A DNA stretch of 64,000 nucleotides, from the IMG/VR virus record IMGVR_UViG_3300037826_000038, positions 4,766 through 68,765 of that record. One strand, given 5' to 3'. The position numbers were made by a program, and so were the translations under genes. Of the stretch, positions 1,950-64,000 are shown piece after piece; within the stretch, counting starts at the first letter, position 1; the number at the start of each line of letters is the position of its first letter. The notes under the pieces were generated by a model. That model saw only the letters and a program-made list of their open reading frames with translations. It searched no databases and had not been told where the DNA came from. Source of the stretch: a virus.

Positions 1950-1955
1950 GTAAGT

Positions 1956-2006
1956 AGAGGGGGGAGTTAAACGCTCCCCCCTCTTTTGGGTTTATGTATG
2001 TAAACT
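1956..2006 (+). promoter_or_regulatory. Terminator hairpin overlapping promoter motif (copy 2)
   Basis: AGAGGGGGGAG-ttaaacg-CTCCCCCCTCT-TTT; TTAAAC 1967-1972, GGTTTAT from 1989. Confidence 0.75.
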
Positions 2007-2032
2007 AAACACACACACCAGGAGGACACACG

Positions 2033-2491
2033 ATGAGCGAGAAGGCAAAAGCACAGATTGAGGTTTGGGACCCGGAAGCCGTCCGTGAGGTTTTAGAGGA
2101 GATGGGCGTGGTATTCACCGAGGATACAACCTGGACCGGATACCGCAGCCATCAGAACCAGCCCGCGGACTTCGTGGTTAGCAAGGCCCAGGTGGGCGGG
2201 CACTATGGGGACGTGGGGTTCGAGCAGAGGGACGGCAAGCTCAACATGATCTACGACGACCTTGACGCTGGGGCCGGGCGCACCAGCAAGTTTTTGTCCG
2301 AGTTCAAGAAGCGATACAGCCTGACCGCCACCCGCCGCCTGCTGGAACGGTACGGCTACCGGATCGAGGAGCACGAGGACGGGACGTTTAGCGCCCACAG
2401 TACAATGAAGTCAGCCCAACGGATGAGCCAGCACGGGCACGGACGCAGCGCCGGACGCCAGACCCTACGCCAGCGGTTGGGGCGCGGGTAG
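2033..2491 (+). CDS. DUF1257/Ycf35-like protein
   Basis: GY..Q..ADFVV, YGDVGF, YDD pattern; directly follows a Ycf46-type ATPase, the usual context. Confidence 0.7.
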   Translation: MSEKAKAQIEVWDPEAVREVLEEMGVVFTEDTTWTGYRSHQNQPADFVVSKAQVGGHYGDVGFEQRDGKLNMIYDDLDAGAGRTSKFLSEFKKRYSLTATRRLLERYGYRIEEHEDGTFSAHSTMKSAQRMSQHGHGRSAGRQTLRQRLGRG

Positions 2492-26952: not shown

Positions 26953-27286
26953 GGTTCCCCTCCATGAACTCCTGTAAAAGACACTGACCTCCAGCGATTG
27001 CCAACCACGCCAGAGGAACCGTAAGCCACTCCCCCCACAACGCCATACCCGCCGTCACGGCGGCGAACCACACCCCGCAGCAATACGGACATTCCGCACC
27101 CTGCGCCAAAGTGTTCCAGATTTTGTGAGCCGTTTGTTTCCTGCTTTTTATGGACCTAATGCTTTGATCGACCAACCAATGCCTGATCTTGCCAAACACA
27201 TTGAACGGACCGGCCTCAAACGCCAGGAGTTGAGCCAGCCTGTACGTCGCCAGGACCGCCAGCACTAGCCGAATCTCAATGTGCAT
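26939..27286 (-). CDS. DUF1360-family membrane protein
   Basis: LATYRLAQLL..GPF, CPYCCGVW. Confidence 0.8.
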   Translation of the reverse strand: MHIEIRLVLAVLATYRLAQLLAFEAGPFNVFGKIRHWLVDQSIRSIKSRKQTAHKIWNTLAQGAECPYCCGVWFAAVTAGMALWGEWLTVPLAWLAIAGGQCLLQEFMEGNRGRE

Positions 27287-29111
27287 CCACATATCCTTGC
27301 ACATCGCTCTTGAGTACCCGCCCGTCCACACCGGACCCTTGGCCCCCTAGCCACTCCATTAGGTCAATCAGCCCGATATTGTGCTCCTCAGTCAGAGCTT
27401 GCGCAGCACTGGTCAAGTCAATCTCCAAGTCTAAAGTCTCGTCAGTGTCTGGTTCGGATCGTTCGCGTAATGGCTCCGGGTCAACCACGTCCTCCGGTTC
27501 AGGTTCCACCCGCTCGGCCTCTGGTTCAACGGGCAGCGGATCCTCAACAAACTGCCCGGTCTCCAAGAGAAAATCAACGTCTTCCGGCTTGACACAGATA
27601 TGCAGATACCTTGCCGTCCTGCCGTACTTGTACCGGGTATAACTGGGACCGGCGATGGTCTGCTTGCCGATAGACGCCCCGGTGTATTTCATCCTGACCA
27701 TATCTCCCGGACACGGCGTTGTCTCCGAGGTCTGCGGGGCATTAGAGACGGTACGCGCCGACCGTGAGGCTCGGCGGTTACTGGTATTTCGCTGGCTACC
27801 ACAACATCCCATAGGTCTCTCTCCTAACTCGTAAACTCGCGGATACAATCGTTTTATCTTCTCAAGAAAATAGTGCCGGGGCTTAGGCTTTCGTTCTGTG
27901 CGTCCCTGCCCCTGCCTGCGGTAGATGTAGAGCGGTTTGTGGAAGTGGACCCCGCAGTAGCCGTACAGTCCCAAACCCACGTTAAACGCCCAGTCCTCAC
28001 GCCCATCGTCCATTAGGAGGCTGTACCCCCCCACGGCCTTCCACGCTGAACGGGGATACAGGATACCCTTGTGCATCTGGTTTTTGTAAAGCAGCCTCTC
28101 GAAGTCGTACTCCTGCATCCGGCGGGGAACCTGCTTGCCGTTGTCCAGCAACCACATTGTGTCGTCGTAGACAAAGGAGTGGGGATACTGTTCAGCCAGT
28201 TTCTGCATCTCCTCAATCCGGGTTGGAGCCATCATATCGTCGCCGTCCAGGACCGTGACGTACCGCCCGTAAGCGTGCTCGATCCCCGTATTAGCGGCGG
28301 CACTTGCCCCGGCGTTGTTGCGGTGCCAATAGAATCGAACGCCTTTCCAGGGGTCTACGTACTCACGAACGATCTCAGCGGTGCGGTCATGGGAAGCGTC
28401 GTCAACTACGATAATCTCAATCCCCTGAAAGGTCTGGTTCAGGACGCTCTCAATGCCTTGGGCAATATAGGCCTCGTGGTTATAGGCCGTGATAATGACA
28501 CTTACCAGTGGGGGCGTGCGAACCAGCCATTTCTTTTTGTCAGGTTCCTCGGTCAGTGCCGAACTGATACCGTCCCCATACGTGCCTTTCCGGGAATGGA
28601 CCACAACCTCGTCAACGTCCATCGGTTCGGCCCAGTAGCCGGCCCGGCACGCCCGTAATTGCCACTCGGACGTCGCGCCCCACAGCGGCCAATACTGCTC
28701 GTCAAAGCCCCCAATCTCATCAAGGGCGTCCCGGCTGACGTACATAAACGTCCCCTGTACGTACCCCTTCTCCCAAGCGGGGTGCCCCATCACCCCGTCC
28801 CCCGCCGTGGCAAATGACCTATTCGCTTGGTAAGGTACGATTAACTGCTCCCATCCCTCTTTTAGTCTCACGTCCTGGTTCAGTATAAGCACGTCGGTGT
28901 CACAGGCGTCAAAGCCCGCGTTGCACGCCCCGGAGAAATATCCCCGCCGATCTAAATTGATAAGGTCTACGTTCTCCCACTGCTTAATATACGGTGGGTC
29001 GCTCTCGTAATCGTTTACGACTATAACGTGATACGTTTCTGGGATACTGTTGAGTAGACTGGGTAGGGTGTCGTGTCCCCGCCAGAACGGGACGATCAAG
29101 GTCAAGTCCAT
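27276..29111 (-). CDS. Double GT2 glycosyltransferase fused to a Cys-rich/acidic region and a C-terminal E3-binding (PSBD)-like domain
   Basis: Two GT-A folds (LIVPF..VVND..LNQD; VSVIITAYN..VVDDAS..LDGDD..EDW); MGCCG; GSGVDGRVLKSDV. Confidence 0.85.
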   Translation of the reverse strand: MDLTLIVPFWRGHDTLPSLLNSIPETYHVIVVNDYESDPPYIKQWENVDLINLDRRGYFSGACNAGFDACDTDVLILNQDVRLKEGWEQLIVPYQANRSFATAGDGVMGHPAWEKGYVQGTFMYVSRDALDEIGGFDEQYWPLWGATSEWQLRACRAGYWAEPMDVDEVVVHSRKGTYGDGISSALTEEPDKKKWLVRTPPLVSVIITAYNHEAYIAQGIESVLNQTFQGIEIIVVDDASHDRTAEIVREYVDPWKGVRFYWHRNNAGASAAANTGIEHAYGRYVTVLDGDDMMAPTRIEEMQKLAEQYPHSFVYDDTMWLLDNGKQVPRRMQEYDFERLLYKNQMHKGILYPRSAWKAVGGYSLLMDDGREDWAFNVGLGLYGYCGVHFHKPLYIYRRQGQGRTERKPKPRHYFLEKIKRLYPRVYELGERPMGCCGSQRNTSNRRASRSARTVSNAPQTSETTPCPGDMVRMKYTGASIGKQTIAGPSYTRYKYGRTARYLHICVKPEDVDFLLETGQFVEDPLPVEPEAERVEPEPEDVVDPEPLRERSEPDTDETLDLEIDLTSAAQALTEEHNIGLIDLMEWLGGQGSGVDGRVLKSDVQGYVDAH

Positions 29112-44032: not shown

Positions 44033-44669
44033 ACTTCCCATCCTGTATAACTCATTCTCGATGCGTGCGTTCCTCGCTGACCGGAAACGGGAGACGCGCC
44101 GGGCCATCACCCCGCAGCCGTGGTTGGCTAACAACCTATGGCATTATAGTCCCAACAAGAAGGCTGTGGGGTTGACCGGAGAGGCTTTGCTTGACGGACC
44201 GTACGAGTACAACGTCTGGCCCAACGATCAGGCCTACTCCCTGGCAATGGTGCGCTATTGTCCTTACGGACAGCGGGGAGGCAGGGTGTGGGGGCGTGAG
44301 TCGTGGATCCTTCTTGAGATCGACGCCCCCACCTACCGCATCCAGTACACTGCCGACAAGACCCAGGCAGTGATCCACTGTGACCGGGAGCTTGACGTGC
44401 TCACTACAACAGGTCCCAAGCCGGGCATCTTTATGCCCCGCGAGTTCTCACGGATCACCCATGAACTTGTCAACGTGCGCGCCGAACGGCTCCACGAGAT
44501 CACCCGCGAAGGGGCGCTAGCCGAGGGAATCGAGCCGATACCACAACTTCAGGGTGAGGCCATTCAAGCGTATGGGGCACTATGGGACGCGATCAATTTT
44601 AGCCGGGGCTACGGGTGGAAGGATAACCCGTGGGTGTGGGTACTACAACTAGGAGAGTGGATTGTATGA
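44022..44669 (+). CDS. ASCH/PUA-related phage protein
   Basis: RKRETRR, CPYG..VWGRE, IFMPR..SRI, ERLHEIT..ALAEG, NPWVWV. Confidence 0.8.
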   Translation: MTTELPILYNSFSMRAFLADRKRETRRAITPQPWLANNLWHYSPNKKAVGLTGEALLDGPYEYNVWPNDQAYSLAMVRYCPYGQRGGRVWGRESWILLEIDAPTYRIQYTADKTQAVIHCDRELDVLTTTGPKPGIFMPREFSRITHELVNVRAERLHEITREGALAEGIEPIPQLQGEAIQAYGALWDAINFSRGYGWKDNPWVWVLQLGEWIV

Positions 44670-45316
44670 ATGTCAAACTACTGAGCATCACCCCAAACGC
44701 CGATGAACTGATTGAGCACGCCGGGCGGGTATGTCACCAGTCCAACGAACTTGATGGTACGGATACAGAAACGTTTATCCGGTATCTGGTTAAAGTGGGA
44801 CATGAGAGTGTAATTGAGCACGCCACAGCTACGTTCGAGATCAGCGGGATCAGCCGGGCGTGCAGTCACCAGCTTGTCCGGCACCGCATCGCGTCGTACT
44901 CCCAGGAGAGCCAGCGGTACGTCGATATGTCTGACCCCGAATACGTGATGCCCCCTACCATTGAGGACGACGCTGAGGCGCTGGAGACCTTTACGGAACT
45001 GTGCTATCACGTCACACGCCTCTATCGCGAACTGCGTGAGTTGGGTATTCCCAAGGAGGACGCCCGGTTCGTGCTGCCCAACGCCACCGCAACCCGTATC
45101 GTGGTCACGATGAACTTCCGGGAACTGCTCCACTTCTTCAGGCTGCGTACTACACCGCACGCCCAGTGGGAAATCCGTTGGGTTGCACTGTGGATGCTGG
45201 ACCTACTTGGGACACAGAGTGTCATTTTCTACGATTTTCTGGCACGGTTTATCGACTATCACCCTGACCTGTATCAACAATACCTCGGCCGGAGGACCCA
45301 CTATGAAGCGCAGTAA
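44666..45316 (+). CDS. thyX: FAD-dependent thymidylate synthase
   Basis: GHESVIEH, RHRIASYSQESQRY, EDARFVLP, AQWEIR. Confidence 0.97.
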   Translation: MNVKLLSITPNADELIEHAGRVCHQSNELDGTDTETFIRYLVKVGHESVIEHATATFEISGISRACSHQLVRHRIASYSQESQRYVDMSDPEYVMPPTIEDDAEALETFTELCYHVTRLYRELRELGIPKEDARFVLPNATATRIVVTMNFRELLHFFRLRTTPHAQWEIRWVALWMLDLLGTQSVIFYDFLARFIDYHPDLYQQYLGRRTHYEAQ

Positions 45317-46115
45317 GATCGAGTGGACGGACTATTCAGGTGGCTACGCTAACATCGTCTGGCGGGGTTCTGAGGACTCCGACTGCAAATGCTCACCGGG
45401 GTGCGCGAACTGCTATGTTGACCGCATCACTGCCCGCGCCGGGGACCGCTGGCCGCACCTAACCCAGTTTCACCCCGACAAACTGGACAAACTGGCACGC
45501 TGTCAGCCCCGTCCCGGTAAGACCCCGTATCGTCGAGGTCCGGGCAGCAAGCCCATGGTCTTTGTTGTAGACATCGGGGACCTTTTTCACCGGCGCGTCC
45601 CCCAGTGGTTTATCCACAAGTCACTGGATACGTTTTATGTCCGTAACGACATCACATGGCAGTTACTCACCAAACGCCCGGACCGTATGTATGACGAGAT
45701 CGAAGCGTGGCTGACGGTCAATGCTCTAAATGAGTTGCCGGATTGGATATGGGCCGGTGTGACCGTGGAAAACCAAGACTGTGCGGCAGACCGCATCAAT
45801 CCATTTTCGGCACTGAGAGCAGCGGTGCGGTGGGTGTCTTATGAGCCAGCGCTGGGTGACATCTACTGGGCCGGTTGGGAGTTTGTGGACTGGCTGGTGG
45901 CTGGGGGAGAGTCCGGTGCTGATGCCCGGCCCGCGTCTGTGGTATGGTTCCGCAACGCCCGTGACTGGGCGTTGGAAAACGGGATCGACTTCTTCTTCAA
46001 ACAGTGGGGGGAATGGGCACCCACAGGGGACAATTCGATGATGCTCAAGCGTGTTGGGCGGTATGATGCAGGGTGTGAGTTGGACGGGAGAGAATGGAGG
46101 GAGTTTCCGAGATGA
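45303..46115 (+). CDS. DUF5131 (phage Gp37/Gp68) radical-SAM-like protein
   Basis: SKIEWTD, C.CSPGCANCY, LLTKRP, GVTVENQ, GGESG, FFFKQWG. Confidence 0.92.
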   Translation: MKRSKIEWTDYSGGYANIVWRGSEDSDCKCSPGCANCYVDRITARAGDRWPHLTQFHPDKLDKLARCQPRPGKTPYRRGPGSKPMVFVVDIGDLFHRRVPQWFIHKSLDTFYVRNDITWQLLTKRPDRMYDEIEAWLTVNALNELPDWIWAGVTVENQDCAADRINPFSALRAAVRWVSYEPALGDIYWAGWEFVDWLVAGGESGADARPASVVWFRNARDWALENGIDFFFKQWGEWAPTGDNSMMLKRVGRYDAGCELDGREWREFPR

Positions 46116-54394: not shown

Positions 54395-55028
54395 ACAGTG
54401 GCGCGTCCGCGGTATTTTCGCACAGGACCGCTGCGAGCTATTTGAGGCGGCGGCGGAACAGATTTTGCAAGCTACCGGTCTCACCAGGGTCGTCTATTTG
54501 CATGACGAAGGTGGTGACATTCGTTTTGCTGGTGCGGACGAAACTTTTGTCCTACAACATATGACCAAGCGTTACACAGACCTACTAGCCGCTATGGATA
54601 CCATCAACGACGAGACCCTGTTGATTGTCGATGACGTCGAAAACATACAGAGGTATCCAATCTCAATGACACGCCACATGATCAATCATATTGCCAGTCA
54701 AACGCGGTATAAGATTATTGGAGGAGCGTCTTTGTTAGAACGTCACTTTTATGATCTGTACGCACCGTTCCACGTACTGGACCGGCGCATTCTCTGGGCT
54801 TCGCATTACTGGGCCCTCAAGGCTCAACATCGTGAAGTTTCTGTTTTTGACGGTCGTACCGTGGTTGAAAACAAAGACATGGCATACACAGCCAGAAAAA
54901 TCAAGCCGTTTGTCTATTTTGATTTGCAACCGGACTCGGACAACCCGTTACAGGTTGAGTTCTATGGCGATTTGCGACGCGCACCTATAATGCCCCGCAC
55001 GCAGGATATGGAGGACTTGAAGTTGTGA
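54363..55028 (+). CDS. Degenerate SNF2 N-terminal-domain paralog (no Walker A)
   Basis: LIVDD, DLYAPFHVLDRRIL, KIKPFVY align by eye with VVDE, DLYAQLRFLSPEIL, KLQPYVY of the helicase. Confidence 0.6.
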   Translation: MMDKQKLKHLEQWRVRGIFAQDRCELFEAAAEQILQATGLTRVVYLHDEGGDIRFAGADETFVLQHMTKRYTDLLAAMDTINDETLLIVDDVENIQRYPISMTRHMINHIASQTRYKIIGGASLLERHFYDLYAPFHVLDRRILWASHYWALKAQHREVSVFDGRTVVENKDMAYTARKIKPFVYFDLQPDSDNPLQVEFYGDLRRAPIMPRTQDMEDLKL

Positions 55029-56104
55029 GTAAAATCTACCTACTGCAGAATGTGTACGAAGCCGCTATCGAGCGTCTTAGATTCGTCAGAGAAAACTTCG
55101 ATCGCGTTGTTGTTGCCTTCAGCGGCGGCAAAGATTCAACGCTAACACTGCACTTGGCCATGGAGGTATTCAGTGATTTCACGGTCTACTTCTGGGACAA
55201 GGAAAGCAACTTGATCTCCACGGCGGACTTTATTCGTGATATATTCGATACTCTCTCTGGGCGGGTCGAACCTTATTGGTTCGCGCTTCCATTTAGGATG
55301 CGCAACGCACTAAGCGTTTATGAACCGTATTGGTACTGTTGGGACCCCTCATGTGTTGACCGCTGGATCTATCAGCCACCAGACCGTTCGTATGTCTATA
55401 TGAGAGATCGAAATATTCTGTCTTCATATGGATACAACCCCGATCGGCATAATTTATATCGGCTCTTCGCAGAACATATTAGCGAGCGCGGAAAATACAG
55501 AACCGCTATTCTCGTCGGCTTGCGCACCGACGAGTCACTGAATCGCTTCCGGGCAGTCACCAAAAACCCACAAATGGGAAAAACATGGATGACAAAAACG
55601 GACGCAGATGGCAACAACTGTTTCAATGTGTATCCGGTTTATGATTGGTCCTTCGGTGATGTCTGGACCTATATCGCTGAGAACAATGTCCCCTACGCGC
55701 CTGTTTATGACCAAATGCACAAAGCTGGTATTTACAAACGCAATATGCGGATTTCGCAATCTTTCTGTGACGTTAGCAAAAAGGGACTGCCGGCAATTCG
55801 AGAAATCGAGCCCGAGTCTTTTGCGAGGTTCGCGCAACGCGTCGCCGGTGTGAACTCGCTTACCCATGTTGACCTCGAAGAAGTTATCAAGGCGGCAGAA
55901 GGTATAAGTTACGATTTCCTTTTGCAGCTTTACCCTGCTGATGTACGAGAAGAAGTTGAGACTAGGCTTGAACGCAGCCCCACGCTCGATGGAGAAGACC
56001 GTAATGTTATTCGTGCGTTGCTCAACAATGACATCCGCCTGAAACGGGTAAATCGTTCTCGGCGCAATGGGGCAGCGGTTAAGGAGAAATATAGTAACCT
56101 ATAG
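55025..56104 (+). CDS. PAPS-reductase/PP-loop family protein (IbrA-like)
   Basis: VAFSGGKDS, WYCWDP, VGLRTDESLNR, YPVYDW..DVW, RVAGVN. Confidence 0.88.
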   Translation: MSKIYLLQNVYEAAIERLRFVRENFDRVVVAFSGGKDSTLTLHLAMEVFSDFTVYFWDKESNLISTADFIRDIFDTLSGRVEPYWFALPFRMRNALSVYEPYWYCWDPSCVDRWIYQPPDRSYVYMRDRNILSSYGYNPDRHNLYRLFAEHISERGKYRTAILVGLRTDESLNRFRAVTKNPQMGKTWMTKTDADGNNCFNVYPVYDWSFGDVWTYIAENNVPYAPVYDQMHKAGIYKRNMRISQSFCDVSKKGLPAIREIEPESFARFAQRVAGVNSLTHVDLEEVIKAAEGISYDFLLQLYPADVREEVETRLERSPTLDGEDRNVIRALLNNDIRLKRVNRSRRNGAAVKEKYSNL

Positions 56105-57424: not shown

Positions 57425-58006
57425 ATGGCAGCTCCGACGGTTCAAGAAGTGCGAGCACATCACGAGCAGTACCCACTTGTCGATAACGATGGCTTTGATT
57501 GCGGTTGTGTATGGCTCGCCACTGACACCCGCCGAGGTATCCCCGCACTGGTGAGGCTCAAAGTCGATGAGGGACAGGTCGCGCTCCACAACGGTCTGTC
57601 GTTTTGGCAGCCCTTGAATGAGTTAGTCTGGGTAGAGCATACTGTCTTTATGCCCTGCACCCCAGAGGGACGCCCGTTGTACCTAATGGAAGAGAATCTA
57701 ATCCTGCGCGAGAAATACGAGGGATTAGCGCGCAAGACCGAGGGGTTGGTGAACGAGAAAGTCAACCTCCAACACCAGCTACGGGTGCAGGGTGATGTAT
57801 TACTGGATGCAACCCCACGCACACAGCCACAGAGGTTTGTTGAGCTTTCACATGGTGATTTTATTAACCTTTCGGCGGTGGCTTATGTTAATGTTTGGGG
57901 TGAAGACGCTTTGACAATCTACTGGAACCATGGACCGGGCGACGAGATAGACTGTGATTTCGTTGGTAACGATGCTACGAAAATCTTAGAAGCCCTGCGG
58001 GTTTGA
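57425..58006 (+). CDS. Hypothetical protein
   Basis: AAGGA RBS; internal coiled coil. Confidence 0.6.
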   Translation: MAAPTVQEVRAHHEQYPLVDNDGFDCGCVWLATDTRRGIPALVRLKVDEGQVALHNGLSFWQPLNELVWVEHTVFMPCTPEGRPLYLMEENLILREKYEGLARKTEGLVNEKVNLQHQLRVQGDVLLDATPRTQPQRFVELSHGDFINLSAVAYVNVWGEDALTIYWNHGPGDEIDCDFVGNDATKILEALRV

Positions 58007-58225
58007 CACCGTGTCCTTTTAATGGTACAATGAGATCACAGTGACGGAGGGGTGGCGCCCTCGGAGTTGAGGTCACATCCGGCAAACGGGAAGAGGCAAA
58101 GGGGTATGATATGACGCAGTTAGCAGACAAGCGGTTTGTTGTAGGGCGTTCTCCTATTCCCGGGGAACATGCCACGTTCCTCCTTTTGCAGGAGGGCGCT
58201 CTACAACAAATCGCTTTTTTGTTTT
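58003..58225 (+). promoter_or_regulatory. Sigma70 promoter plus structured attenuator leader (C4-antisense-like) upstream of replication genes
   Basis: TTGACA 58003-08, 17 bp, TACAAT 58026-31; loop GTGGC 58052-56 complementary to loop GCCAC 58171-75; 27-bp stem 58129-58216 plus U-tract. Confidence 0.7.
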
Positions 58226-58236
58226 AGGAGGTTGAC

Positions 58237-58608
58237 TTGACAAACAAATCGTATTGGCAGAAGTTTGGTAGAAAGGTGGCTCTGATTGGCGGGGGAATGA
58301 AATGTTATTATTGTGAAGCTAGAGTTCTCAGAGGTGATACCGTTCACCAAATGATTACCCATCTTCACATCATTCGAGACCTCGGTATGATTCCCCACAT
58401 AATATGCAAAGAACTAGAGAGGTCCTTGAGAATGCGTATAGCAACGATTGATCACGTTATACCTATAAGCAAAGGAGGTTCAGAAACCGATTTGGATAAC
58501 ATGGTTGTGGCTTGTCATAGGTGTAATACCTGGAAAGGATCAGCTGATTGGAGTAGGTTTATAAACAAGAAGGGTAGTATGAAAGGACATGACCATGGCG
58601 ATCTATAA
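58237..58608 (+). CDS. HNH endonuclease
   Basis: CYYC, TIDHVIPISKGG, NMVVACHRCN; AT-rich. Confidence 0.9.
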   Translation: MTNKSYWQKFGRKVALIGGGMKCYYCEARVLRGDTVHQMITHLHIIRDLGMIPHIICKELERSLRMRIATIDHVIPISKGGSETDLDNMVVACHRCNTWKGSADWSRFINKKGSMKGHDHGDL

Positions 58609-59578
58609 GAACCGAGTCACCCGCGAATTTGCTCAGATACGTAACGATCTACTAGCCGACCCCAGTTTGTCCTTCAAGGCCAAGGGAATCCTGTCTTACC
58701 TGCTCAGTCGTCCCCCAACCTGGGAAGCGTGTATATCTGACATCGTGAACCGAGCCACCGATGGCATTCACGCAGTGCGGTCAGGGTTGGACGAGCTGGA
58801 GGAGCAGGGATTCATTATTCGCTCCCAACTGCGTGATGATGAAGGCCGTTTCTCGGGATTCCAGTTTGACGTGTACGACGCCCCACAACCCCAGGACAAC
58901 CGCACAACCCCGCAGGACAGAACCCGGACCGTTTTAAGGAAACCTGATAACGGGAAACCCGTTAACGGGGATTCACACCCTAATAATACTGACTCTACTA
59001 ATACTGATTCTACTAACACTAAAAGAACAGGGGCTTCGCCCGGCATTTCTCCCGGCGAGGGCTTAGCTCCCCAAGACGACACCCCCATCCAAGCCAGCGA
59101 CATGCTCACCCAGGAGGGACGGGACCGCATTTTGGAGAACCACTGGGGCAAGTGGGGACAGACCGACGAGGGAGACCCACTCGACCAAGCCTACCTTGAT
59201 CTCCTAGATCGGTGTGACACATTAGCCAGCTACAATCCCCCCATCGAGATTGACCGGGTTGCGGTGCTGCGGTTCATCCACGCGATGATCGAGACTGCTG
59301 GGGTGCCGCTGGATTACGCCAACAAGAGCGAGGTCCGGTTCTGGATCGACCAGACCCAGGGGTTATTGCGCAAAGCCGACTGGGACCTCAACCTAGCCAA
59401 AGCCGCTTTGCGTAAGGCGTTGATGGATGGGTTGAGCATCAAAGGCCCTCAGAGCGTTCACTACGCCGTGGCGGACGTGAAGCGCAAAGCCAAGCAGCGC
59501 GAAAACGGACCGGTGTCTGGTGGGGATGGGGGACGGGTAACACGCATTCACAAGATCGGTGGGAGGAGGAGAGAGTAA
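58589..59578 (+). CDS. Phage replication initiator (N-terminal wHTH)
   Basis: FAQIRN..DPSLSFKAKGIL.YLLS, GLDELEEQGFI; low-complexity linker; upstream of DnaB. Confidence 0.85.
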   Translation: MTMAIYKNRVTREFAQIRNDLLADPSLSFKAKGILSYLLSRPPTWEACISDIVNRATDGIHAVRSGLDELEEQGFIIRSQLRDDEGRFSGFQFDVYDAPQPQDNRTTPQDRTRTVLRKPDNGKPVNGDSHPNNTDSTNTDSTNTKRTGASPGISPGEGLAPQDDTPIQASDMLTQEGRDRILENHWGKWGQTDEGDPLDQAYLDLLDRCDTLASYNPPIEIDRVAVLRFIHAMIETAGVPLDYANKSEVRFWIDQTQGLLRKADWDLNLAKAALRKALMDGLSIKGPQSVHYAVADVKRKAKQRENGPVSGGDGGRVTRIHKIGGRRRE

Positions 59579-59808
59579 TGAGCTATTGCCGATTTGGAGA
59601 TAGTGACGCCTATCTATTCTACAGTAAGACCAGTGGTCAATATGAGTGCTGTGATTGTAGCTTACGTGAGGAACGTTGGGCATTGATGGACACGCCCCAG
59701 GAGGCACTAGACCATCTGCTAGAGCACAGACAGGCGGGCGACACCATTGATCAAGATGGGATCGACCGTCTGACAGACGAAGTGGAGGGACGCCGTGAGC
59801 AGCAATGA
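59578..59808 (+). CDS. Small Cys/His protein
   Basis: MSYCRF, ECCDCSL, HLLEH; coupled overlaps. Confidence 0.65.
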   Translation: MSYCRFGDSDAYLFYSKTSGQYECCDCSLREERWALMDTPQEALDHLLEHRQAGDTIDQDGIDRLTDEVEGRREQQ

Positions 59809-61168
59809 CCACCTACCCAACTCAGAACGTGCTGAGAAAACGGCCCTGAGCATTGCCCTGTCGGACCCAGTGGTTGCCATGCCGGAACTGGTGAAACTGG
59901 ACCCGATGGACTTCTACAATGCAGACCACCGCACGCTATTCAGGGTGATGAGTGATGTATGGGGAGAAACCGACGACGTTGACGCCGTGACCATTCTAGA
60001 GCGTCTGGACAACCGGGGACACGACAGGCTTACCCGCAGCCTCAATACCTACATGACGTTTCACCCGTTTGGTCATATCGACCAATACCTTGAGATCATA
60101 AAGGATAGAGCAGCCAGACGGCGGATCATCGAGGGGATGGGGTCGCTGGCGCAGAATCTGCACGACACGGAAACTCCCTTGGGGCAGGTGATCGACGAGG
60201 GCGTGCAGGTATTCGAGCAACAAGCCCCGGTGCCGGAACGCGAATACCAGGCAGAGGACGGAGCACGAGCCGTCCTTGCCAAGGCCCACGAGTATTACTC
60301 TAACCCCTTGAGTTATGGGGAGACACGAGGCATCAACACCGGGTGGACCGACCTCAACGTTGCCCTCGGTGGGTGGAAACGCGGGTACGTCTACTATGTG
60401 CTAGGGATGCAGCACAGCGGCAAGACGTGGTTCTGCCTGAACGCCGCGATGAACATCTGTGAACGCGGGGGATCCGCTGCGGTGTTTTCGATGGAAATGA
60501 ACGCCGACACCGACGACGATCCGCAGAAGGTGACACTGTGGGAGCGGGTTGTGCTGGCCCAGGCACAGATTGATTACAGGACCTATCAGTCCGGGCACTT
60601 GAGCGACGACCAGTACAACCGGCTACTGGCAGCCGGGGACGAGGTCGCCACCTGGGACCTCACCATGTACGATGACGTTCGTACCTTGGCGGGGATGGAG
60701 TCGGCGGTACGCAGGTTACAGCGGGACCGCAGGCTAGACCTTGCCGTGGCTGACTACCTGGGACTGATCGAGCAATACCGGGATTACAGGAGCCGAAATG
60801 AGGAGATTGGCGGATTGACCAGTGGGCTAAACCGGCTGGGACACCGCACGCAGGTTCCGTGGCTGGTGCCCCATCAGGTGTCGGACAAAGCCATTGCGTC
60901 CCGGAACAACAAACGCATCCAAGCCAGCGATGGCTATGAGAGCGGACACCTCAGCAAAGACGCGGCGGTGATCCTCGGTATCTACCGGGAGGACCTATGG
61001 AACCCCGATGCGGTGCCGGGACTGTACGAGATCGACGTGCTGAAGGACCGGATCGGGGGAGCCGGGGGCGCGAGCGTGGACCTGCTGTTCACCCCCCACG
61101 GACGCATACGCACCTATACAACCACACAAGCCCCCGAACCGGCGTTGGTTGGGGATTGGTACGATTAA
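59795..61168 (+). CDS. dnaB: Replicative DNA helicase
   Basis: LPNSERAE, DFY..H, GINTGWTDLN, HSGKT, FSMEM, DYLGL, ESG. Confidence 0.93.
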   Translation: MSSNDHLPNSERAEKTALSIALSDPVVAMPELVKLDPMDFYNADHRTLFRVMSDVWGETDDVDAVTILERLDNRGHDRLTRSLNTYMTFHPFGHIDQYLEIIKDRAARRRIIEGMGSLAQNLHDTETPLGQVIDEGVQVFEQQAPVPEREYQAEDGARAVLAKAHEYYSNPLSYGETRGINTGWTDLNVALGGWKRGYVYYVLGMQHSGKTWFCLNAAMNICERGGSAAVFSMEMNADTDDDPQKVTLWERVVLAQAQIDYRTYQSGHLSDDQYNRLLAAGDEVATWDLTMYDDVRTLAGMESAVRRLQRDRRLDLAVADYLGLIEQYRDYRSRNEEIGGLTSGLNRLGHRTQVPWLVPHQVSDKAIASRNNKRIQASDGYESGHLSKDAAVILGIYREDLWNPDAVPGLYEIDVLKDRIGGAGGASVDLLFTPHGRIRTYTTTQAPEPALVGDWYD

Positions 61169-61198
61169 CTTAGACATATAGATAAATGGAGGTACTCG

Positions 61199-61648
61199 GT
61201 GAGCTCTTACGATGCAGATCATATCGAGGTTTATGACGACGAATTGGTCTACGTGTGGTTCAATGAGAATCGAGAGAAGTTGGACATTCAGGGAAAGACT
61301 CTCATCCTAGAGATTAACTCTTTCGAGGGGGCTTGGTTCAGCGAAGGGCATGCTTATGCAAAACTCAGGGCCGAAAACGGAAACGGATTTGATCAAATAA
61401 CACTAGGCTGGCGCATTACGAAAGCCGCTATGAAATCGCAGCCTCAATCATGGAATAGATACAAGCCCGGAGATTGGTCGAGCAGATTTTTATCCGCCGA
61501 ACAGGCGAAACACGCTGCGCTGAAGTGGTTTGAGGACACTTTTCATAACGGGAGCGGGTGGAGACTTATCGAGTATGTTTGGCAAGAGGTTGAGGACGCT
61601 AACGAGACATACATGGATCGGGTTGAAAAAGAACTAGCTACCCGATAA
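61199..61648 (+). CDS. Hypothetical protein
   Basis: GGAGGT RBS. Confidence 0.65.
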   Translation: MSSYDADHIEVYDDELVYVWFNENREKLDIQGKTLILEINSFEGAWFSEGHAYAKLRAENGNGFDQITLGWRITKAAMKSQPQSWNRYKPGDWSSRFLSAEQAKHAALKWFEDTFHNGSGWRLIEYVWQEVEDANETYMDRVEKELATR

Positions 61649-61657
61649 GGGTTCTAC

Positions 61658-61719
61658 TAGGGCAATCTCCACCCAGTCAGCATTTGCCCCTTGACTTTAT
61701 AACGTTTTACCCTTATAAT
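61658..61719 (+). promoter_or_regulatory. Early promoter cassette copy driving the sigma factor gene
   Basis: gggcaat..tttgccccTTGACT 61691-96, 17 bp, TATAAT 61714-19. Confidence 0.85.
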
Positions 61720-61761
61720 TGAATTGTAGGGTTAAGGGACACAAACAACCGGGAGGAAACG

Positions 61762-62292
61762 ATGGAATACCTAGAGAACCAAGAGGTCGTTTACGGGATA
61801 CAGGAGGCCGGGATATGGTCAAAAGTCCACAAACTAGTCAAAGCGTGTGGGGGAGAGGTCGAGGACCACTTTCAGGAGATCGTCGCACAGGCAATTGAGG
61901 TTGTAGCCGACGATCCCACCTTGCTTGACCAGGAGCCGGGCTACCTGCTCCAACGGGCCATGTGGGAGGCCCAAAAACATTACCGACAGATCAACCACAC
62001 CTACATGAAACAGGCTCATAACTACCAGACGCTCAGCATGGACCGGGAGAGTGGCACCGGGAGCACCTTACACCAGATGTTATCCGACACCCCGAACCTC
62101 GACGACGCCATTGATCGGGCGTGGCTGGCAGACCGGGTACGCAGCGAGGCCCAACGGTTCGAGCAGGGTGTGGAGATGGTTGACCTTTTGAGCCAGGGTT
62201 GGTCTTACGCGGAGATCGCGGAGACCCTGGACATCTCCAAGGGGACGATTAGCTACCGGGTCCGCAAAATCCGGGAAGCCATCGCCGGGTAG
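61762..62292 (+). CDS. ECF-like RNA polymerase sigma factor
   Basis: 176 aa; EDHFQE region-2-like motif, LSMD linker, GWSYAEIAETLDISKGTISYR region 4 HTH. Confidence 0.8.
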   Translation: MEYLENQEVVYGIQEAGIWSKVHKLVKACGGEVEDHFQEIVAQAIEVVADDPTLLDQEPGYLLQRAMWEAQKHYRQINHTYMKQAHNYQTLSMDRESGTGSTLHQMLSDTPNLDDAIDRAWLADRVRSEAQRFEQGVEMVDLLSQGWSYAEIAETLDISKGTISYRVRKIREAIAG

Positions 62293-62304
62293 TTAGCCCC
62301 ACTG

Positions 62305-62346
62305 GCCGGGGTGGATTAAACGAACACCCCGGCTTTTGGTTTATGT
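62305..62346 (+). promoter_or_regulatory. Terminator/promoter motif (copy 8)
   Basis: GCCGGGGTG..ttaaacg..CACCCCGGC-TTTT; TTAAAC 62316-21, GGTTTAT from 62338. Confidence 0.75.
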
Positions 62347-62349
62347 AGA

Positions 62350-62713
62350 TGTACAACACAGGACATTAACAAGCAGACAGTGACAGGGCCAAGCCAGAAC
62401 GTCCCGGCAGGAGTAACGAAACCTGCCCAATCACCAACCTAAACAAATAGCGTGTGGCTGAGGGACACCACGTTAAACGATGCGTCTGCTTCTAACGTGC
62501 TGAACCTCCACGTTAGTCGACACAATCGACCCTGACGGGACGCTGAGGGCTGGCAACTAAAGGAACGGGACCGACCCGTATATGGATCAGTCAGTTGCGC
62601 AAAGCTAATAGGGTGTTGGTTCAGTCCCGTTCCTTTGCCCCGAATGTTCCTCCCGGGCATTCGAGGCAGACCCTCTAGAGCCGGGGGCGGTGTCACAGCC
62701 GCCCTCGGTTTTT
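62350..62713 (+). ncRNA. Putative ~350-nt structured non-coding RNA
   Basis: Own promoter motif and terminator (62681-62713); no credible ORF; multiple long helices and a potential pseudoknot. Confidence 0.6.
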
Positions 62714-62716
62714 GTG

Positions 62717-62756
62717 TTAAACGAAACCTCGATAATTCGGTTTATATATGTAAACC
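62717..62756 (+). promoter_or_regulatory. Promoter motif (copy 9)
   Basis: TTAAAC 62717-22, GGTTTAT from 62739. Confidence 0.75.
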
Positions 62757-62776
62757 TATAAGACCGGGAGGTAACG

Positions 62777-63217
62777 ATGCCGACACGAGCTGGCGTAATT
62801 GAAGGGAATCAGGAAGAAAGCCGGACGAATGACTGGTGGGCTGATGAGTCGGCCCAGGGTGAGTTAAACGATGTCGCCAAGGAACTGGGGATGACAAGCG
62901 CCGACATCTGTGAGGCGCTGGACGTGAACAAGGTGCGGTTCTTTCAAGGTTCTCCCCTGGACGCCAAGCGCCGGATGCGCGACTATGCGCGCCGCCGCCG
63001 ACACACTCTGATCGACCGGTTGGAGACCCCCCAACCGGAACACACCGAAGCCAAAACCATCGCGTGGACGTATATGCGCGCCCCCAACGGGGCCAAGATC
63101 AACATCACCGCCAGGGAGGGCAGCACCGCCGAAGCGATAGCGGCCACGGTTCTCAACCTCGCAGAAGCGATGGATATGTTGAAAGAGCAAGCTGGATTTA
63201 AGATCGAGGTTTGGTAG
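62777..63217 (+). CDS. Hypothetical protein
   Basis: ACCGGGAGG RBS after the promoter motif. Confidence 0.7.
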   Translation: MPTRAGVIEGNQEESRTNDWWADESAQGELNDVAKELGMTSADICEALDVNKVRFFQGSPLDAKRRMRDYARRRRHTLIDRLETPQPEHTEAKTIAWTYMRAPNGAKINITAREGSTAEAIAATVLNLAEAMDMLKEQAGFKIEVW

Positions 63218-63231
63218 AAAGGAGCTTTGTG

Positions 63232-63615
63232 ATGGATAAGGACCAAGAACCCCTGATTGATCGACTAGCACGTGTGACGGAACCAACTGGGTTCAGACTC
63301 AAGGATCCGGTGATTGTAGAGGTTGGACCGTGTGATGGACAAGCCGCCCGGTTCATTCGGGACCGTATTATGGGCAGAGACCTGAGATTTATTGATGCCG
63401 AAGTTGTCATATTTACAGAACTGTTCAAGCATTGGCGCGATATGCTAGCCACCGTAGACGAGGCCGATGACATTCCGTGGGAAGATGTGCTCCATAGCGA
63501 CCGGGTCAATGAGCTGCTTTCGGCGTGGTGGTGGTTAGTGTTTTTCATATATACGCGGGCAGGGGAGAGAGACATCCAGGATAAAGACCCAACGGGAGAA
63601 GGAGACCTATTATGA
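63232..63615 (+). CDS. Hypothetical protein
   Basis: AAGGAG RBS; ATGA overlap with the next gene. Confidence 0.6.
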   Translation: MDKDQEPLIDRLARVTEPTGFRLKDPVIVEVGPCDGQAARFIRDRIMGRDLRFIDAEVVIFTELFKHWRDMLATVDEADDIPWEDVLHSDRVNELLSAWWWLVFFIYTRAGERDIQDKDPTGEGDLL

Positions 63616-64000
63616 CCATAAAGCAATTACAGGCGGGGACCTACCCACCCCGGCGTTGGAGTTTGGCCGGGTTTGCGGAGGCCGGCAAGACCGTATTTCT
63701 CACGCAGATGGCGCGAAGTCCCATGCTGGTGATCGACGCTGATCACCGCTTTGCGGAATACCGGCACCTCGTCGAGGGAGAGAACAAGCCCCCGGTATAT
63801 GTCATGGGCCAGGGAGCCAATGACCCCCTGACGATCCTCAATGAACTGAAGGGGTTTATGCCGGGGTCTGACGTAGGGGTGATCGGGGTGGACAGTCTGA
63901 CCAGCATTTTCCAACCGGTCCTGACCGAGGGACTGGCGCGGGTTGACGCCGACGAATGGTCGTCCTCAGATATGGCCCGTAGGAAGGCCAACGTGATCCG
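63612..64000 (+). CDS. Sak4/AAA_24-like P-loop ATPase (truncated by window edge, absent from ORF track)
   Basis: MTIKQLQAG..GFAEAGKT..LVIDAD..VIGVDSLT. Confidence 0.75.
   Translation, partial: MTIKQLQAGTYPPRRWSLAGFAEAGKTVFLTQMARSPMLVIDADHRFAEYRHLVEGENKPPVYVMGQGANDPLTILNELKGFMPGSDVGVIGVDSLTSIFQPVLTEGLARVDADEWSSSDMARRKANVI

What the first reader, a model, noticed from the sequence alone, without database searches (positions are those of the whole stretch)
62350..62713. Large structured non-coding RNA immediately downstream of the sigma gene
Seen: ~360 nt without a credible ORF, between a promoter motif and a terminator. Helices include AAGCAGAC 62371-78/GTCTGCTT 62484-91, GGCAGG 62406-11/CCTGCC 62422-27, CTAACGTG 62492-99/CACGTTAG 62509-16, a 13-bp AAAGGAACGGGAC 62559-71/GTCCCGTTCCTTT 62624-36, and a hairpin at 62637-62667. 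CGTCCCG 62400-06 can pair with CGGGACG 62536-42, crossing the first helix (pseudoknot or switch). It also carries a lone TTAAAC at 62473. I do not recognise it as tRNA, tmRNA, SRP, RNase P or an intron. Inference: a new phage ncRNA class, possibly a sigma/RNAP decoy, protein sponge or ribozyme.
Basis: partly seen in the sequence, partly recalled or inferred. Interest (0 to 1): 0.75.

Follow-up and report, generated by a model that had tools for sequence, protein, structure and literature searches.

The report
Orphan structured RNA gene in phage
A metagenomic phage carries a roughly 360-base stretch with its own phage-type promoter and terminator but no protein-coding frame, most likely a structured regulatory RNA of no known family, whose function cannot yet be tested because no distant relatives could be retrieved.

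Summary
Every helix is at the stated coordinates, and no credible ORF, tRNA/tmRNA or Rfam family matches. The unit lies between a phage promoter motif (TTAAAC-N17-GTTTAT, 62316-62344) and a strong terminator (62677-62713). That motif occurs 10 times in the 68.8-kb genome, always on the + strand. This is the only 1 of 10 copies with no Shine-Dalgarno sequence and ATG after it. The 13-bp helix beats 300 of 300 shuffles. The whole unit folds at z = -3.8, but the 5' half alone reaches only z = -1.8.

Contigs from three other tidal-flat metagenomes show a modular element. The 3' core (about 62558-62713: long hairpin, second hairpin, terminator) is kept. The 5' 200 nt are deleted in one relative and replaced in another.

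The second hairpin exposes a CUCCC loop. It holds the genome's only + strand complement of CCGGGAGG, the phage's consensus ribosome-binding sequence, and matches 10 of 10 bases at the sigma gene's site.

My best guess is a sigma-dependent trans-acting RNA that masks those ribosome-binding sites. This is weakly supported. No covariation test was possible and no expression data exist. Decoy and ribozyme ideas have no support.

The parts
61691..61719 (+). Sigma-70-type promoter-like site (TTGACT-17-TATAAT, 11 of 12) upstream of the sigma-like gene
61762..62292 (+). Divergent ECF-type sigma-like gene (176 aa)
   Evidence: Pfam Sigma70_r4_2 at 27.1 bits, above its cut-off. phrog_1740 sigma factor, E 3.3e-7 over residues 19-174. 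TIGR02937 sigma70-ECF, E 8e-8 over residues 29-174 but below its cut-off. No homologue other than itself.
62305..62337 (+). Terminator of the sigma gene: a 9-bp perfect hairpin with TTAAAC in its loop, followed by TTTT
   Evidence: (I12)
62316..62344 (+). Phage promoter motif TTAAAC-N17-GTTTAT that drives the RNA. It is the only 1 of 10 copies not followed by an SD sequence and ATG.
62351..62713 (+). Inferred non-coding transcript of about 360 nt. The start is estimated from the motif, not mapped.
62357..62557 (+). Variable 5' domain. It is deleted in a relative (run X3) and replaced upstream of 62527 in another (X4).
62559..62636 (+). Long hairpin of the conserved core: a 13-bp perfect stem closing a 52-nt, weakly structured loop
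   Evidence: (I2)
62636..62668 (+). Second hairpin of the core. The loop CUCCC (62650-62654) is unpaired. 62647-62656 (TTCCTCCCGG) is complementary to the ribosome-binding sequence CCGGGAGGAA of the sigma gene.
62677..62713 (+). Intrinsic terminator: GC-rich stem 62681-90 / 62699-708, loop 62691-98, U-run 62709-13
   Evidence: (I15)
62717..62745 (+). Next copy of the promoter motif. It serves the 146-aa gene at 62777-63217 through the SD sequence CCGGGAGG at 62764-71.

Best explanation
The stretch is a free-standing RNA gene of a tidal-flat phage. It is transcribed on the + strand from one of the phage's ten TTAAAC-N17-GTTTAT promoters and ended by a strong intrinsic terminator, giving a non-coding RNA of about 360 nt. 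I infer that these promoters are read by the ECF-like sigma factor encoded just upstream.

The RNA is modular. A conserved 3' core of about 155 nt (a long hairpin with a 13-bp stem, a second hairpin and the terminator) carries an exchangeable 5' domain of about 200 nt.

The mechanism I think most likely is trans-acting base pairing. The always-unpaired CUCCC loop of the second hairpin would start pairing with the conserved leader sequence CCGGGAGG(AA), which serves as the Shine-Dalgarno site of the sigma gene and of the first genes of the sigma-dependent operons. Pairing could then extend to 8-10 bp and damp their translation, forming a negative feedback loop on the sigma regulon.

Shown: the anatomy, the motif statistics, the uniqueness of the complement and the modular conservation. 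Inferred: transcription, the sigma dependence, and all of the pairing and feedback steps. My odds are about 0.6 that a functional RNA is made here and about 0.2 for this particular mechanism. The confidence value of 0.3 given for this explanation lies between those two figures.
For: Independent unit. The promoter motif has 8 matches in the window against 0 in 100 shuffles. The genome holds 10, all on the + strand. Nine of the 10 are followed within about 20-35 nt by an SD sequence and ATG. Only this copy is not. A terminator follows at 62677-62713. The next gene has its own copy of the motif.

Non-coding. There is no + strand frame above 27 aa and none has an SD sequence. The minus-strand 85-aa frame has no hit at all.

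Structure. The whole unit has z = -3.83 and the core z = -3.37. The 13-bp helix was reached in 0 of 300 shuffles.

Conservation. A contig of run X4 covers 62527-62628 with 1 difference in 102. A contig of X3 covers 62600-62781 with 3 substitutions. Neighbouring coding pieces differ by 1.8% to 8.3%, and most by 4-8%. The three listed changes inside the RNA (62415 A>G, 62695 A>G, a T inserted after 62708) fall in two hairpin loops and the U-run.

Anti-SD loop. CCGGGAGG occurs 10 times on the + strand, and 8 of these are SD sites just before an ATG. It occurs only once on the minus strand in 68.8 kb. That single site lies at the top of the second hairpin, spanning its loop and adjoining stem. The 10-mer CCGGGAGGAA occurs at just two gene starts, the sigma gene and the AAA ATPase gene at 288. 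Loop bases 62651-62654 are unpaired with probability 1.00.

Sigma context. The sigma-like gene itself has a host-type TTGACT-17-TATAAT site and full-length ECF-type similarity.
Against: No RNA data exist; no listed sequencing run is RNA. No homologue distant enough for covariation could be retrieved, so the structure is untested by evolution.

The minus strand folds as well or better: core -57.4 kcal/mol, z = -4.31, against -54.7, z = -3.37 on the + strand. The 5' domain alone is marginal (z = -1.82).

Hybridisation scans give no statistical support for targeting start regions. Complementary 11-mers number 7 against a shuffle mean of 6.4, with 89 of 200 shuffles as many. Complementary 10-mers number 40 against 25.8, with 7 of 200 as many. 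In duplex scans many non-start windows score as well as start regions. Only 2 of the top 25 windows for the hairpin apex are gene starts, and the sigma start region is not among the 25.

I noticed the anti-SD match after looking, so its rough chance estimate of about 0.01 is post hoc. All but 5 nt of the 10-nt complement are buried in the hairpin stem.

Divergence along the locus is uneven: 1.8% to 8.3% in coding pieces. The low divergence of the core could therefore reflect recent recombination rather than selection.
Confidence: 0.3

Rival explanations
1. It is a decayed or mosaic spacer: the remnant of a lost gene cassette that kept its promoter and terminator. Any RNA made would have no function of its own. 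The hairpins would be left-over terminators or recombination scars.
For: The leader after the promoter (GTAGATGTACAACACAGGAC) looks like a degraded copy of the consensus leader (GTATGTAAACCATAACA..CCGGGAGG), lacking the SD sequence and ATG.

The locus is plastic. One relative has a 201-nt deletion, another has replaced 5' sequence, and the neighbouring 134-aa gene is absent in a relative.

The 5' domain folds little better than shuffles. No relative was found outside one habitat.
Against: A 13-bp perfect helix was never reached in 300 shuffles. The 3' core is kept with 1 difference in 102 nt and 3 in 182 nt while its 5' neighbour is swapped. This is not what neutral debris would be expected to show. 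The unit also keeps an intact promoter motif and a strong terminator.
Confidence: 0.2
2. It is a cis-acting leader, comparable to the terminated promoter-proximal transcript of lambda pR'-tR' or to a riboswitch or attenuator. RNA polymerase starting at 62316 would stop at 62713 unless a factor, a ligand or an alternative fold lets it read into the 146-aa gene and the recombination genes beyond.
For: A promoter, a long structured untranslated stretch and a terminator lie directly before an operon.

The 5' domain segment 62380-90 can pair with 62686-96 of the terminator at 82% complementarity, making it a candidate antiterminator (I13).

The CCTCCCGG of the second hairpin is also complementary to the SD sequence of the 146-aa gene 108 nt downstream (I21).
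Against: The downstream gene has its own complete promoter motif straight after the terminator, so read-through is not needed. No riboswitch or leader family scored at E <= 10. The relative without the 5' domain loses the candidate antiterminator but keeps the core. No antiterminator protein was recognised among the neighbours.
Confidence: 0.15
3. It is a protein-binding or decoy RNA. Candidates are the reader's sigma/RNAP decoy or protein sponge, or an anti-defence decoy of the kind carried in variable accessory loci of phages.
For: It has its own promoter and terminator in a hypervariable accessory position, like a 'moron'. A conserved scaffold carries a swappable module. The long stem closes a large, mostly open 52-nt loop that could present a binding site.
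Against: No 6S-like rod with a central bubble is predicted, and no 6S model scored. No repeated binding motifs or tandem units are present. The internal TTAAAC has no partner -10 element. No neighbouring protein matches a defence or RNA-binding family.
Confidence: 0.15
4. It is a DNA-level element such as a replication origin or a set of protein-binding palindromes in the replication module. The inverted repeats would act as DNA, not RNA.
For: It lies among replication and recombination genes: an initiator, DnaB and a Sak4-like ATPase. Both strands fold equally well, as expected for plain Watson-Crick inverted repeats.
Against: There are no iterons or tandem repeats and no AT-rich unwinding stretch. 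The unit is framed exactly by a promoter motif and a terminator on one strand. The hairpin apex and the terminator use G-U pairs that exist only in the + strand RNA.
Confidence: 0.07

Closest known systems
C-rich-loop regulatory RNAs of Gram-positive bacteria (Staphylococcus aureus RNAIII hairpins, Rsa RNAs). Recalled, not retrieved here.
   Same: An own promoter and an intrinsic terminator. A UCCC/CUCCC motif is held unpaired in a hairpin loop and is complementary to Shine-Dalgarno sequences.
   Different: No sequence or model similarity. It is phage-encoded and would act on the phage's own operon leaders. Pairing is not demonstrated and not supported by the hybridisation scans.
Phage antisense and short terminated RNAs (lambda oop and the pR'-tR' '6S' transcript, P1/P7 c4, P22 sar). 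Recalled.
   Same: A short non-coding transcript from a phage promoter that ends at an intrinsic terminator and sits in the regulatory or replication region.
   Different: It is not antisense to a neighbouring gene, since all neighbours are on the same strand. It is larger, about 360 nt. The downstream operon has its own promoter. No Q-like or Ant-like partner was recognised.
6S RNA (RNA polymerase/sigma decoy)
   Same: It is adjacent to a sigma gene. It is of comparable size and highly structured.
   Different: The predicted fold is branched, not one long helix with a central bubble. No 6S model matched at E <= 10.
Large phage-associated structured RNAs in Rfam (GOLLD, ROOL and similar)
   Same: A long, ornate non-coding RNA carried by a phage and without a known partner.
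   Different: No match to any of 4227 Rfam models. It is much smaller. The conserved part is only about 155 nt made of three simple hairpins.
Phage 'moron' transcription units. Recalled concept.
   Same: A self-contained promoter-cargo-terminator cassette between conserved genes, with presence or content varying between close relatives.
   Different: The cargo here is non-coding.

Membership tests
Any Rfam 15 family | Covariance-model score at or above the family's gathering score | tested here: not met
   0 matches over the whole 64-kb window. With permissive filters on 62200-62850, the only match at E <= 10 is Scr3202 at 20.4 bits against a gathering score of 52 (E 1.8). It lies on the last hairpin plus the terminator.
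tRNA / tmRNA | Cloverleaf or tRNA-like domain with a tag reading frame, as detected by ARAGORN | tested here: not met
   0 genes in the window.
6S RNA | One long irregular helix with a central open-promoter-like bubble, and a match to the 6S models | tested here: not met
   The fold is multi-branched. No 6S model matched at E <= 10.
6S RNA | Binds RNA polymerase holoenzyme | not testable with these tools
   This needs a binding assay.
Anti-SD (C-rich loop) trans-acting sRNA | C-rich motif unpaired in a hairpin loop and complementary to target SD sequences | tested here: met
   Loop CUCCC at 62650-54 has unpaired probability 0.57 for the first base and 1.00 for the other four. The genome's only + strand complement of CCGGGAGG lies at the top of this hairpin, spanning the loop and adjoining stem.
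Anti-SD (C-rich loop) trans-acting sRNA | Predicted pairing singles out translation start regions over background | tested here: not met
   Complementary k-mers are not clearly enriched. Many non-start windows score as well in duplex scans.
Anti-SD (C-rich loop) trans-acting sRNA | Own promoter and Rho-independent terminator; a discrete transcript | tested here: inconclusive
   The promoter motif and terminator are present. There is no RNA evidence; no RNA run is listed.
Riboswitch / cis leader | Sits in the 5' UTR of the regulated gene with no promoter in between, and matches a known aptamer | tested here: not met
   A full promoter motif lies between the terminator and the next gene. No riboswitch model matched.
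Type III antitoxin / repeat-mimic RNAs | Tandem direct repeats of a short unit | tested here: not met
   0 tandem arrays. Only short scattered direct repeats are present.
Small protein gene | Open frame with a start codon behind an SD sequence, and conserved product | tested here: not met
   + strand frames are at most 27 aa and lack an SD sequence. The minus-strand 85-aa frame has no hit, not even itself, in 5.8 billion proteins.

The most novel reading that the evidence does not exclude
This would be a new family of modular phage RNAs. A conserved 3' scaffold (long hairpin, anti-SD hairpin, terminator) carries exchangeable 5' modules. The phage's own ECF-like sigma factor switches it on, and it feeds back on the sigma regulon or acts as a programmable guide or decoy. 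The 5' module would set the target and the 3' core the machinery.
Probability: 0.1. Interest if true: 0.7.

Novelty: new variant of a known kind. Interest (0 to 1): 0.4.

Why it matters
If real, this would be a phage regulatory RNA wired directly into a phage-encoded sigma circuit. The proposed order is: a host-type promoter makes sigma, sigma-type promoters then fire, and one of them makes an RNA that can mask the regulon's shared ribosome-binding sequence. Such RNA feedback on a phage sigma regulon did not turn up in my literature searches (search listings only). The swap of the 5' domain between strains would also give a natural experiment on modular RNA evolution. As it stands, it is one orphan locus from one habitat, without expression or covariation data.

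Tried and rejected
Relatives by DNA. blastn of the RNA and of 6 kb around it against GenBank phages found nothing, and plasmids gave nothing. Exact probes from the core in IMG/VR gave 0 hits.

The two arms of the 13-bp stem were used as a gapped pattern in JGI metagenomes and gave 58 loci. All 58 share only the arms, so they are chance or unrelated.

Relatives by promoter motif. IMG/VR gave 21 loci with a single match each. tblastx against the phage gave no significant similarity except a weak hit in L076. The extended consensus gave 0 hits in GTDB genomes.

Relatives by protein. The sigma-like protein, the 146-aa protein and DnaB as single queries in IMG/VR found none. The sigma-like protein has only itself among 178 candidates. 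DnaB has 455 phage records, all below 60% identity, with the listed best below 30%. The 146-aa protein has no match in GenBank phages. It has one 45%-identical homologue, P0003, on a 17.4-kb metagenome contig. That contig could not be fetched: it is not in IMG/VR, and an alignment query found no relative in GTDB genomes.

No RNA holder is listed among the sequencing runs. The parts of the RNA without contig cover in runs X2-X4 say nothing either way.

Target prediction by k-mer complementarity and duplex energy did not single out start regions.

The AlphaFold model of the sigma-like protein from a single sequence was too poor to use (mean pLDDT 51), so no fold search was run. Neighbour proteins matched no Pfam, PHROG, NCBIfam or PADLOC family that suggests an RNA partner. 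No reverse transcriptase, TnpB/IscB or Ro-like protein appeared among the 27 proteins scanned against Pfam. Not every ORF of the phage was scanned.

Supplementary files of papers were not consulted.

Full report
WHAT THE WINDOW IS

The window is bases 4766-68765 of a 68,765-base IMG/VR virus record rated 100% complete. Near-identical DNA occurs in a tidal-flat metagenome, and partial relatives occur in three others.

The region around the finding is a + strand replication and recombination block. It holds:
- a replication-initiator-like gene at 58589-59578 (PHROG hits);
- DnaB at 59795-61168 (Pfam DnaB_C, E 2.5e-37);
- a 149-aa gene;
- a 176-aa sigma-like gene at 61762-62292;
- the stretch in question;
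- a 146-aa gene at 62777-63217;
- a 134-aa gene;
- a weak Sak4-like ATPase.

The sigma-like protein reaches the Pfam cut-off for Sigma70_r4_2 (27.1 bits against 25.7). It matches a phage sigma-factor PHROG over residues 19-174 (E 3.3e-7). It also matches the sigma70-ECF superfamily model over residues 29-174 (E 8e-8, 32.1 bits, below the 42.9 cut-off). It has no homologue but itself in the large protein collection (1 hit of 178 candidates). Calling it a divergent ECF-type sigma factor is reasonable but not proven. A single-sequence AlphaFold model was too poor to help (mean pLDDT 51).

CHECK OF THE OBSERVATION

The + strand has no frame longer than 27 aa in 62350-62713, and none follows a Shine-Dalgarno (SD) sequence. 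The 85-aa frame on the minus strand is not in the 5.8-billion-protein collection, not even as a call on this contig.

ARAGORN finds no tRNA or tmRNA in the window. Rfam 15 gives no match at gathering score in 64 kb. With permissive filters on 62200-62850 the single match at E <= 10 is Scr3202, at 20.4 bits against a gathering score of 52 (E 1.8). It is an alignment of two generic GC-rich hairpins, the last being the terminator.

Folding results:

| Stretch | Strand | MFE (kcal/mol) | z | Shuffles as stable |
|---|---|---|---|---|
| 62340-62715, 376 nt | + | -142.4 (shuffle mean -120.0) | -3.83 | 0 of 100 |
| 62340-62715 | - | -146.9 | -3.54 | 0 of 100 |
| 5' 207 nt | + | -62.0 | -1.82 | 10 of 200 |
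| 3' core, 62545-62676 | + | -54.7 | -3.37 | 2 of 200 |
| 3' core, 62545-62676 | - | -57.4 | -4.31 | 0 of 200 |

The 13-bp perfect helix is longer than the longest perfect helix in any of 300 dinucleotide shuffles (shuffle mean 7.6, maximum 11). Three perfect helices of 8 bp or more compare with a shuffle mean of 0.69, and 9 of 300 shuffles reach three.

Two limits apply. The 5' domain is only marginally better than chance. The minus strand folds as well or better, so thermodynamics does not say which strand matters.

THE PROMOTER MOTIF IS REAL AND SETS THIS UNIT APART

TTAAAC-N17-GTTTAT occurs 8 times in the window, always on the + strand. No match occurred in any of 100 shuffles. The whole genome holds 10, all on the + strand.

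The extended consensus is TTAAAC-N13-TTTTGGTTTATGTATGTAAACCATAACA. In five of the ten copies the TTAAAC sits in the loop of the preceding unit's terminator hairpin (reading of the output). Nine of the ten are followed within about 20-35 nt by an SD sequence (CCGGGAGG, CAGGGAGG or CCAGGAGG) and an ATG. The copy at 62316-62344 is the only one that is not.

The sigma gene itself is preceded by a host-type TTGACT-17-TATAAT site (11 of 12 matches). A second such site (TTGACA-17-TACAAT) lies at 58003-58031.

From this I infer an expression order. The host sigma-70 would express the phage sigma. The phage sigma would then read the ten TTAAAC/GTTTAT promoters, one of which makes this RNA. The 'AAC' in the -35 element fits what I recall of ECF-type promoters, but that is recall, not a test. 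The + strand assignment of the RNA rests on this motif and on the terminator at 62677-62713 (stem 62681-90 / 62699-708, then a U-run).

WHAT RELATIVES SHOW

No relative could be found in any collection that returns DNA; the full list is under Tried and rejected. The only comparative data are Logan contigs of four tidal-flat runs laid on 61000-64000. X1 is probably the source of the record itself.
- In X3, a 151-nt contig joins 62356 directly to 62558 with six other letters between (depth 2.8, 36 letters on the shorter side). This relative keeps the promoter and the first transcribed bases, then goes straight into the 13-bp stem.
- In X4, a contig covers 62527-62628 with 1 difference in 102. 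It continues upstream into 49 nt of unrelated sequence.
- In X3, another contig covers 62600-62781 with 3 substitutions, a T added to the terminator's U-run, and a 7-nt insertion beyond the RNA.
- In X2, the 5' domain is present at least to 62450, with 4 differences in 151.

Neighbouring coding pieces differ by 1.8% to 8.3%.

The listed changes inside the RNA are 62415 A>G (loop of the GGCAGG/CCTGCC hairpin), 62695 A>G (terminator loop) and the extra T after 62708. None touches a predicted pair. This is only three events, and 54 further differences were not shown by the tool.

My reading is that the conserved element is the 3' core of about 155 nt: a long hairpin (62559-62636), a second hairpin (62636-62668) and the terminator. 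The 5' 200 nt are an exchangeable module. The crossing pairs AAGCAGAC/GTCTGCTT and CGTCCCG/CGGGACG appear as near-isoenergetic alternatives in different folds.

A FEATURE THAT SUGGESTS A MECHANISM

The first genes behind the phage promoters share the leader CCGGGAGG as their SD sequence. The 8-mer occurs 10 times on the + strand, and 8 of these lie immediately before the ATG of an ORF. On the minus strand it occurs once in the whole genome, at 62649-62656. So the only + strand complement (CCTCCCGG) lies at the top of the second hairpin of this RNA, spanning its loop and adjoining stem.

The 10-mer CCGGGAGGAA occurs at two gene starts only: the sigma gene (61749) and the AAA ATPase gene (272). 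Its complement is 62647-62656. In the partition function the loop CUCCC (62650-62654) is unpaired with probability 0.57, 1.00, 1.00, 1.00 and 1.00. The flanking bases are paired.

An exposed C-rich loop complementary to SD sequences is how several staphylococcal regulatory RNAs start pairing (recalled, not retrieved). This suggests that the RNA, once made by the phage sigma, masks the ribosome-binding sites of the sigma gene and of the regulon's lead genes.

I hold this loosely, for five reasons.
- I noticed the match after looking.
- A rough composition-based chance of the 8-mer falling within 363 nt is about 0.01, which is my own arithmetic and not a tool result.
- Complementary 11-mers are not enriched: 7 against a shuffle mean of 6.4, with 89 of 200 shuffles as many.
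- Complementary 10-mers are only mildly enriched: 40 against 25.8, with 7 of 200 as many.
- Duplex-energy scans of the core and of the hairpin apex against every window of the genome do not rank start regions above many G-rich coding windows. Only 2 of the top 25 non-overlapping windows are gene starts, and the sigma start region is not among them.

On the minus strand the same bases read as the phage's own SD sequence. They are followed by no ATG, GTG or TTG at a workable distance, and the frame has no homologue.

RIVALS

- Decayed cassette. The degraded leader after the promoter and the plasticity of the locus fit this. The 13-bp perfect stem and the preserved core argue against pure debris.
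- Cis-acting leader or attenuator. This is weakened by the complete promoter motif that stands between the terminator and the next gene.
It has no positive evidence. No 6S-like fold or model match was found, no repeated motifs or tandem units, and no recognisable partner gene nearby.
- DNA-level element. This fits the strand-symmetric stability and the replication context. There are no iterons, and the unit is framed by one-strand signals.

COMPARISON AND NOVELTY

The element belongs to no Rfam family and is not a tRNA, tmRNA, 6S RNA, riboswitch or repeat-type RNA by the tests listed under Membership tests. In kind it resembles phage-encoded, promoter-to-terminator regulatory RNAs and moron cassettes, and in its exposed C-rich loop the anti-SD sRNAs.

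Four features are new relative to those. It sits as one of ten units of a phage-sigma-type promoter set. It is about 360 nt long. It has a conserved-core plus swappable-module layout. Its loop matches the regulon's shared ribosome-binding sequence.

Four literature searches returned nothing describing such an RNA. I saw only the search listings and abstract openings and read no paper. Supplements were not consulted.

VERDICT

'New ncRNA' is plausible: I put about 0.6 on a functional RNA being made here. No 'class' is established. The anti-SD feedback model is the mechanism I would test first (about 0.2). Interest is moderate: this is an orphan locus, with neither expression nor covariation evidence obtainable with the tools at hand.

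Noticed in passing
window 220, 1967, 42403, 48795, 50412, 56697, 62316, 62717, plus two more sites in the 4.8 kb of the record left of the window: There are ten + strand copies of TTAAAC-N13-TTTTGGTTTATGTATGTAAACC. This is a phage-specific promoter class. In five copies the TTAAAC lies in the loop of the upstream terminator hairpin. Nine of ten copies hold a near-palindrome GGTTTAT..GTAAACC, which is broken only in the copy before the RNA. That palindrome could be an operator or a 5' RNA hairpin.
   Followed up: partly
window 58036-58236: This is a second structured untranslated leader. It follows a sigma-70-type site (58003-58031). A hairpin of about 33 bp (58122-58228) ends in a U-run; z = -3.31, with 2 of 200 shuffles as stable. 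It lies just before an HNH endonuclease gene at 58237-58608. By my own reading of the sequence, a 39-codon frame starting at 58112 runs through the hairpin.
   Followed up: partly
window 63218-63598: In a relative (run X3, depth 6.8), 379 nt holding most of the 134-aa gene are replaced by 19 other letters. Another X3 contig keeps 63243-63455. Strains with and without this gene therefore coexist.
   Followed up: no
window 61981: Relatives in three runs (X2, X3, X4) carry an in-frame 3-nt insertion in the sigma-like gene.
   Followed up: no
window 62777-63217: The 146-aa gene downstream of the RNA matches no family. It has one 45%-identical homologue (P0003, 147 aa) on a 17.4-kb metagenome contig, with a strongly conserved PEHxEAKTIAWTYM block. 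That contig would be the best place to look for a diverged copy of the RNA.
   Followed up: partly
window 288-2491, 44630-46115, 55025-56104, 27276-29111: Gene content of the phage includes an AAA ATPase followed by a DUF1257 protein, ThyX, DUF5131, a PAPS-reductase/DUF3440 protein, an SNF2 helicase, and a family-2 glycosyltransferase inside the minus-strand structural block. DnaB is below 30% identical to the best-listed GenBank phages and below 60% in all 455 matching records. The phage is therefore an isolated lineage with an unknown host.
   Followed up: no
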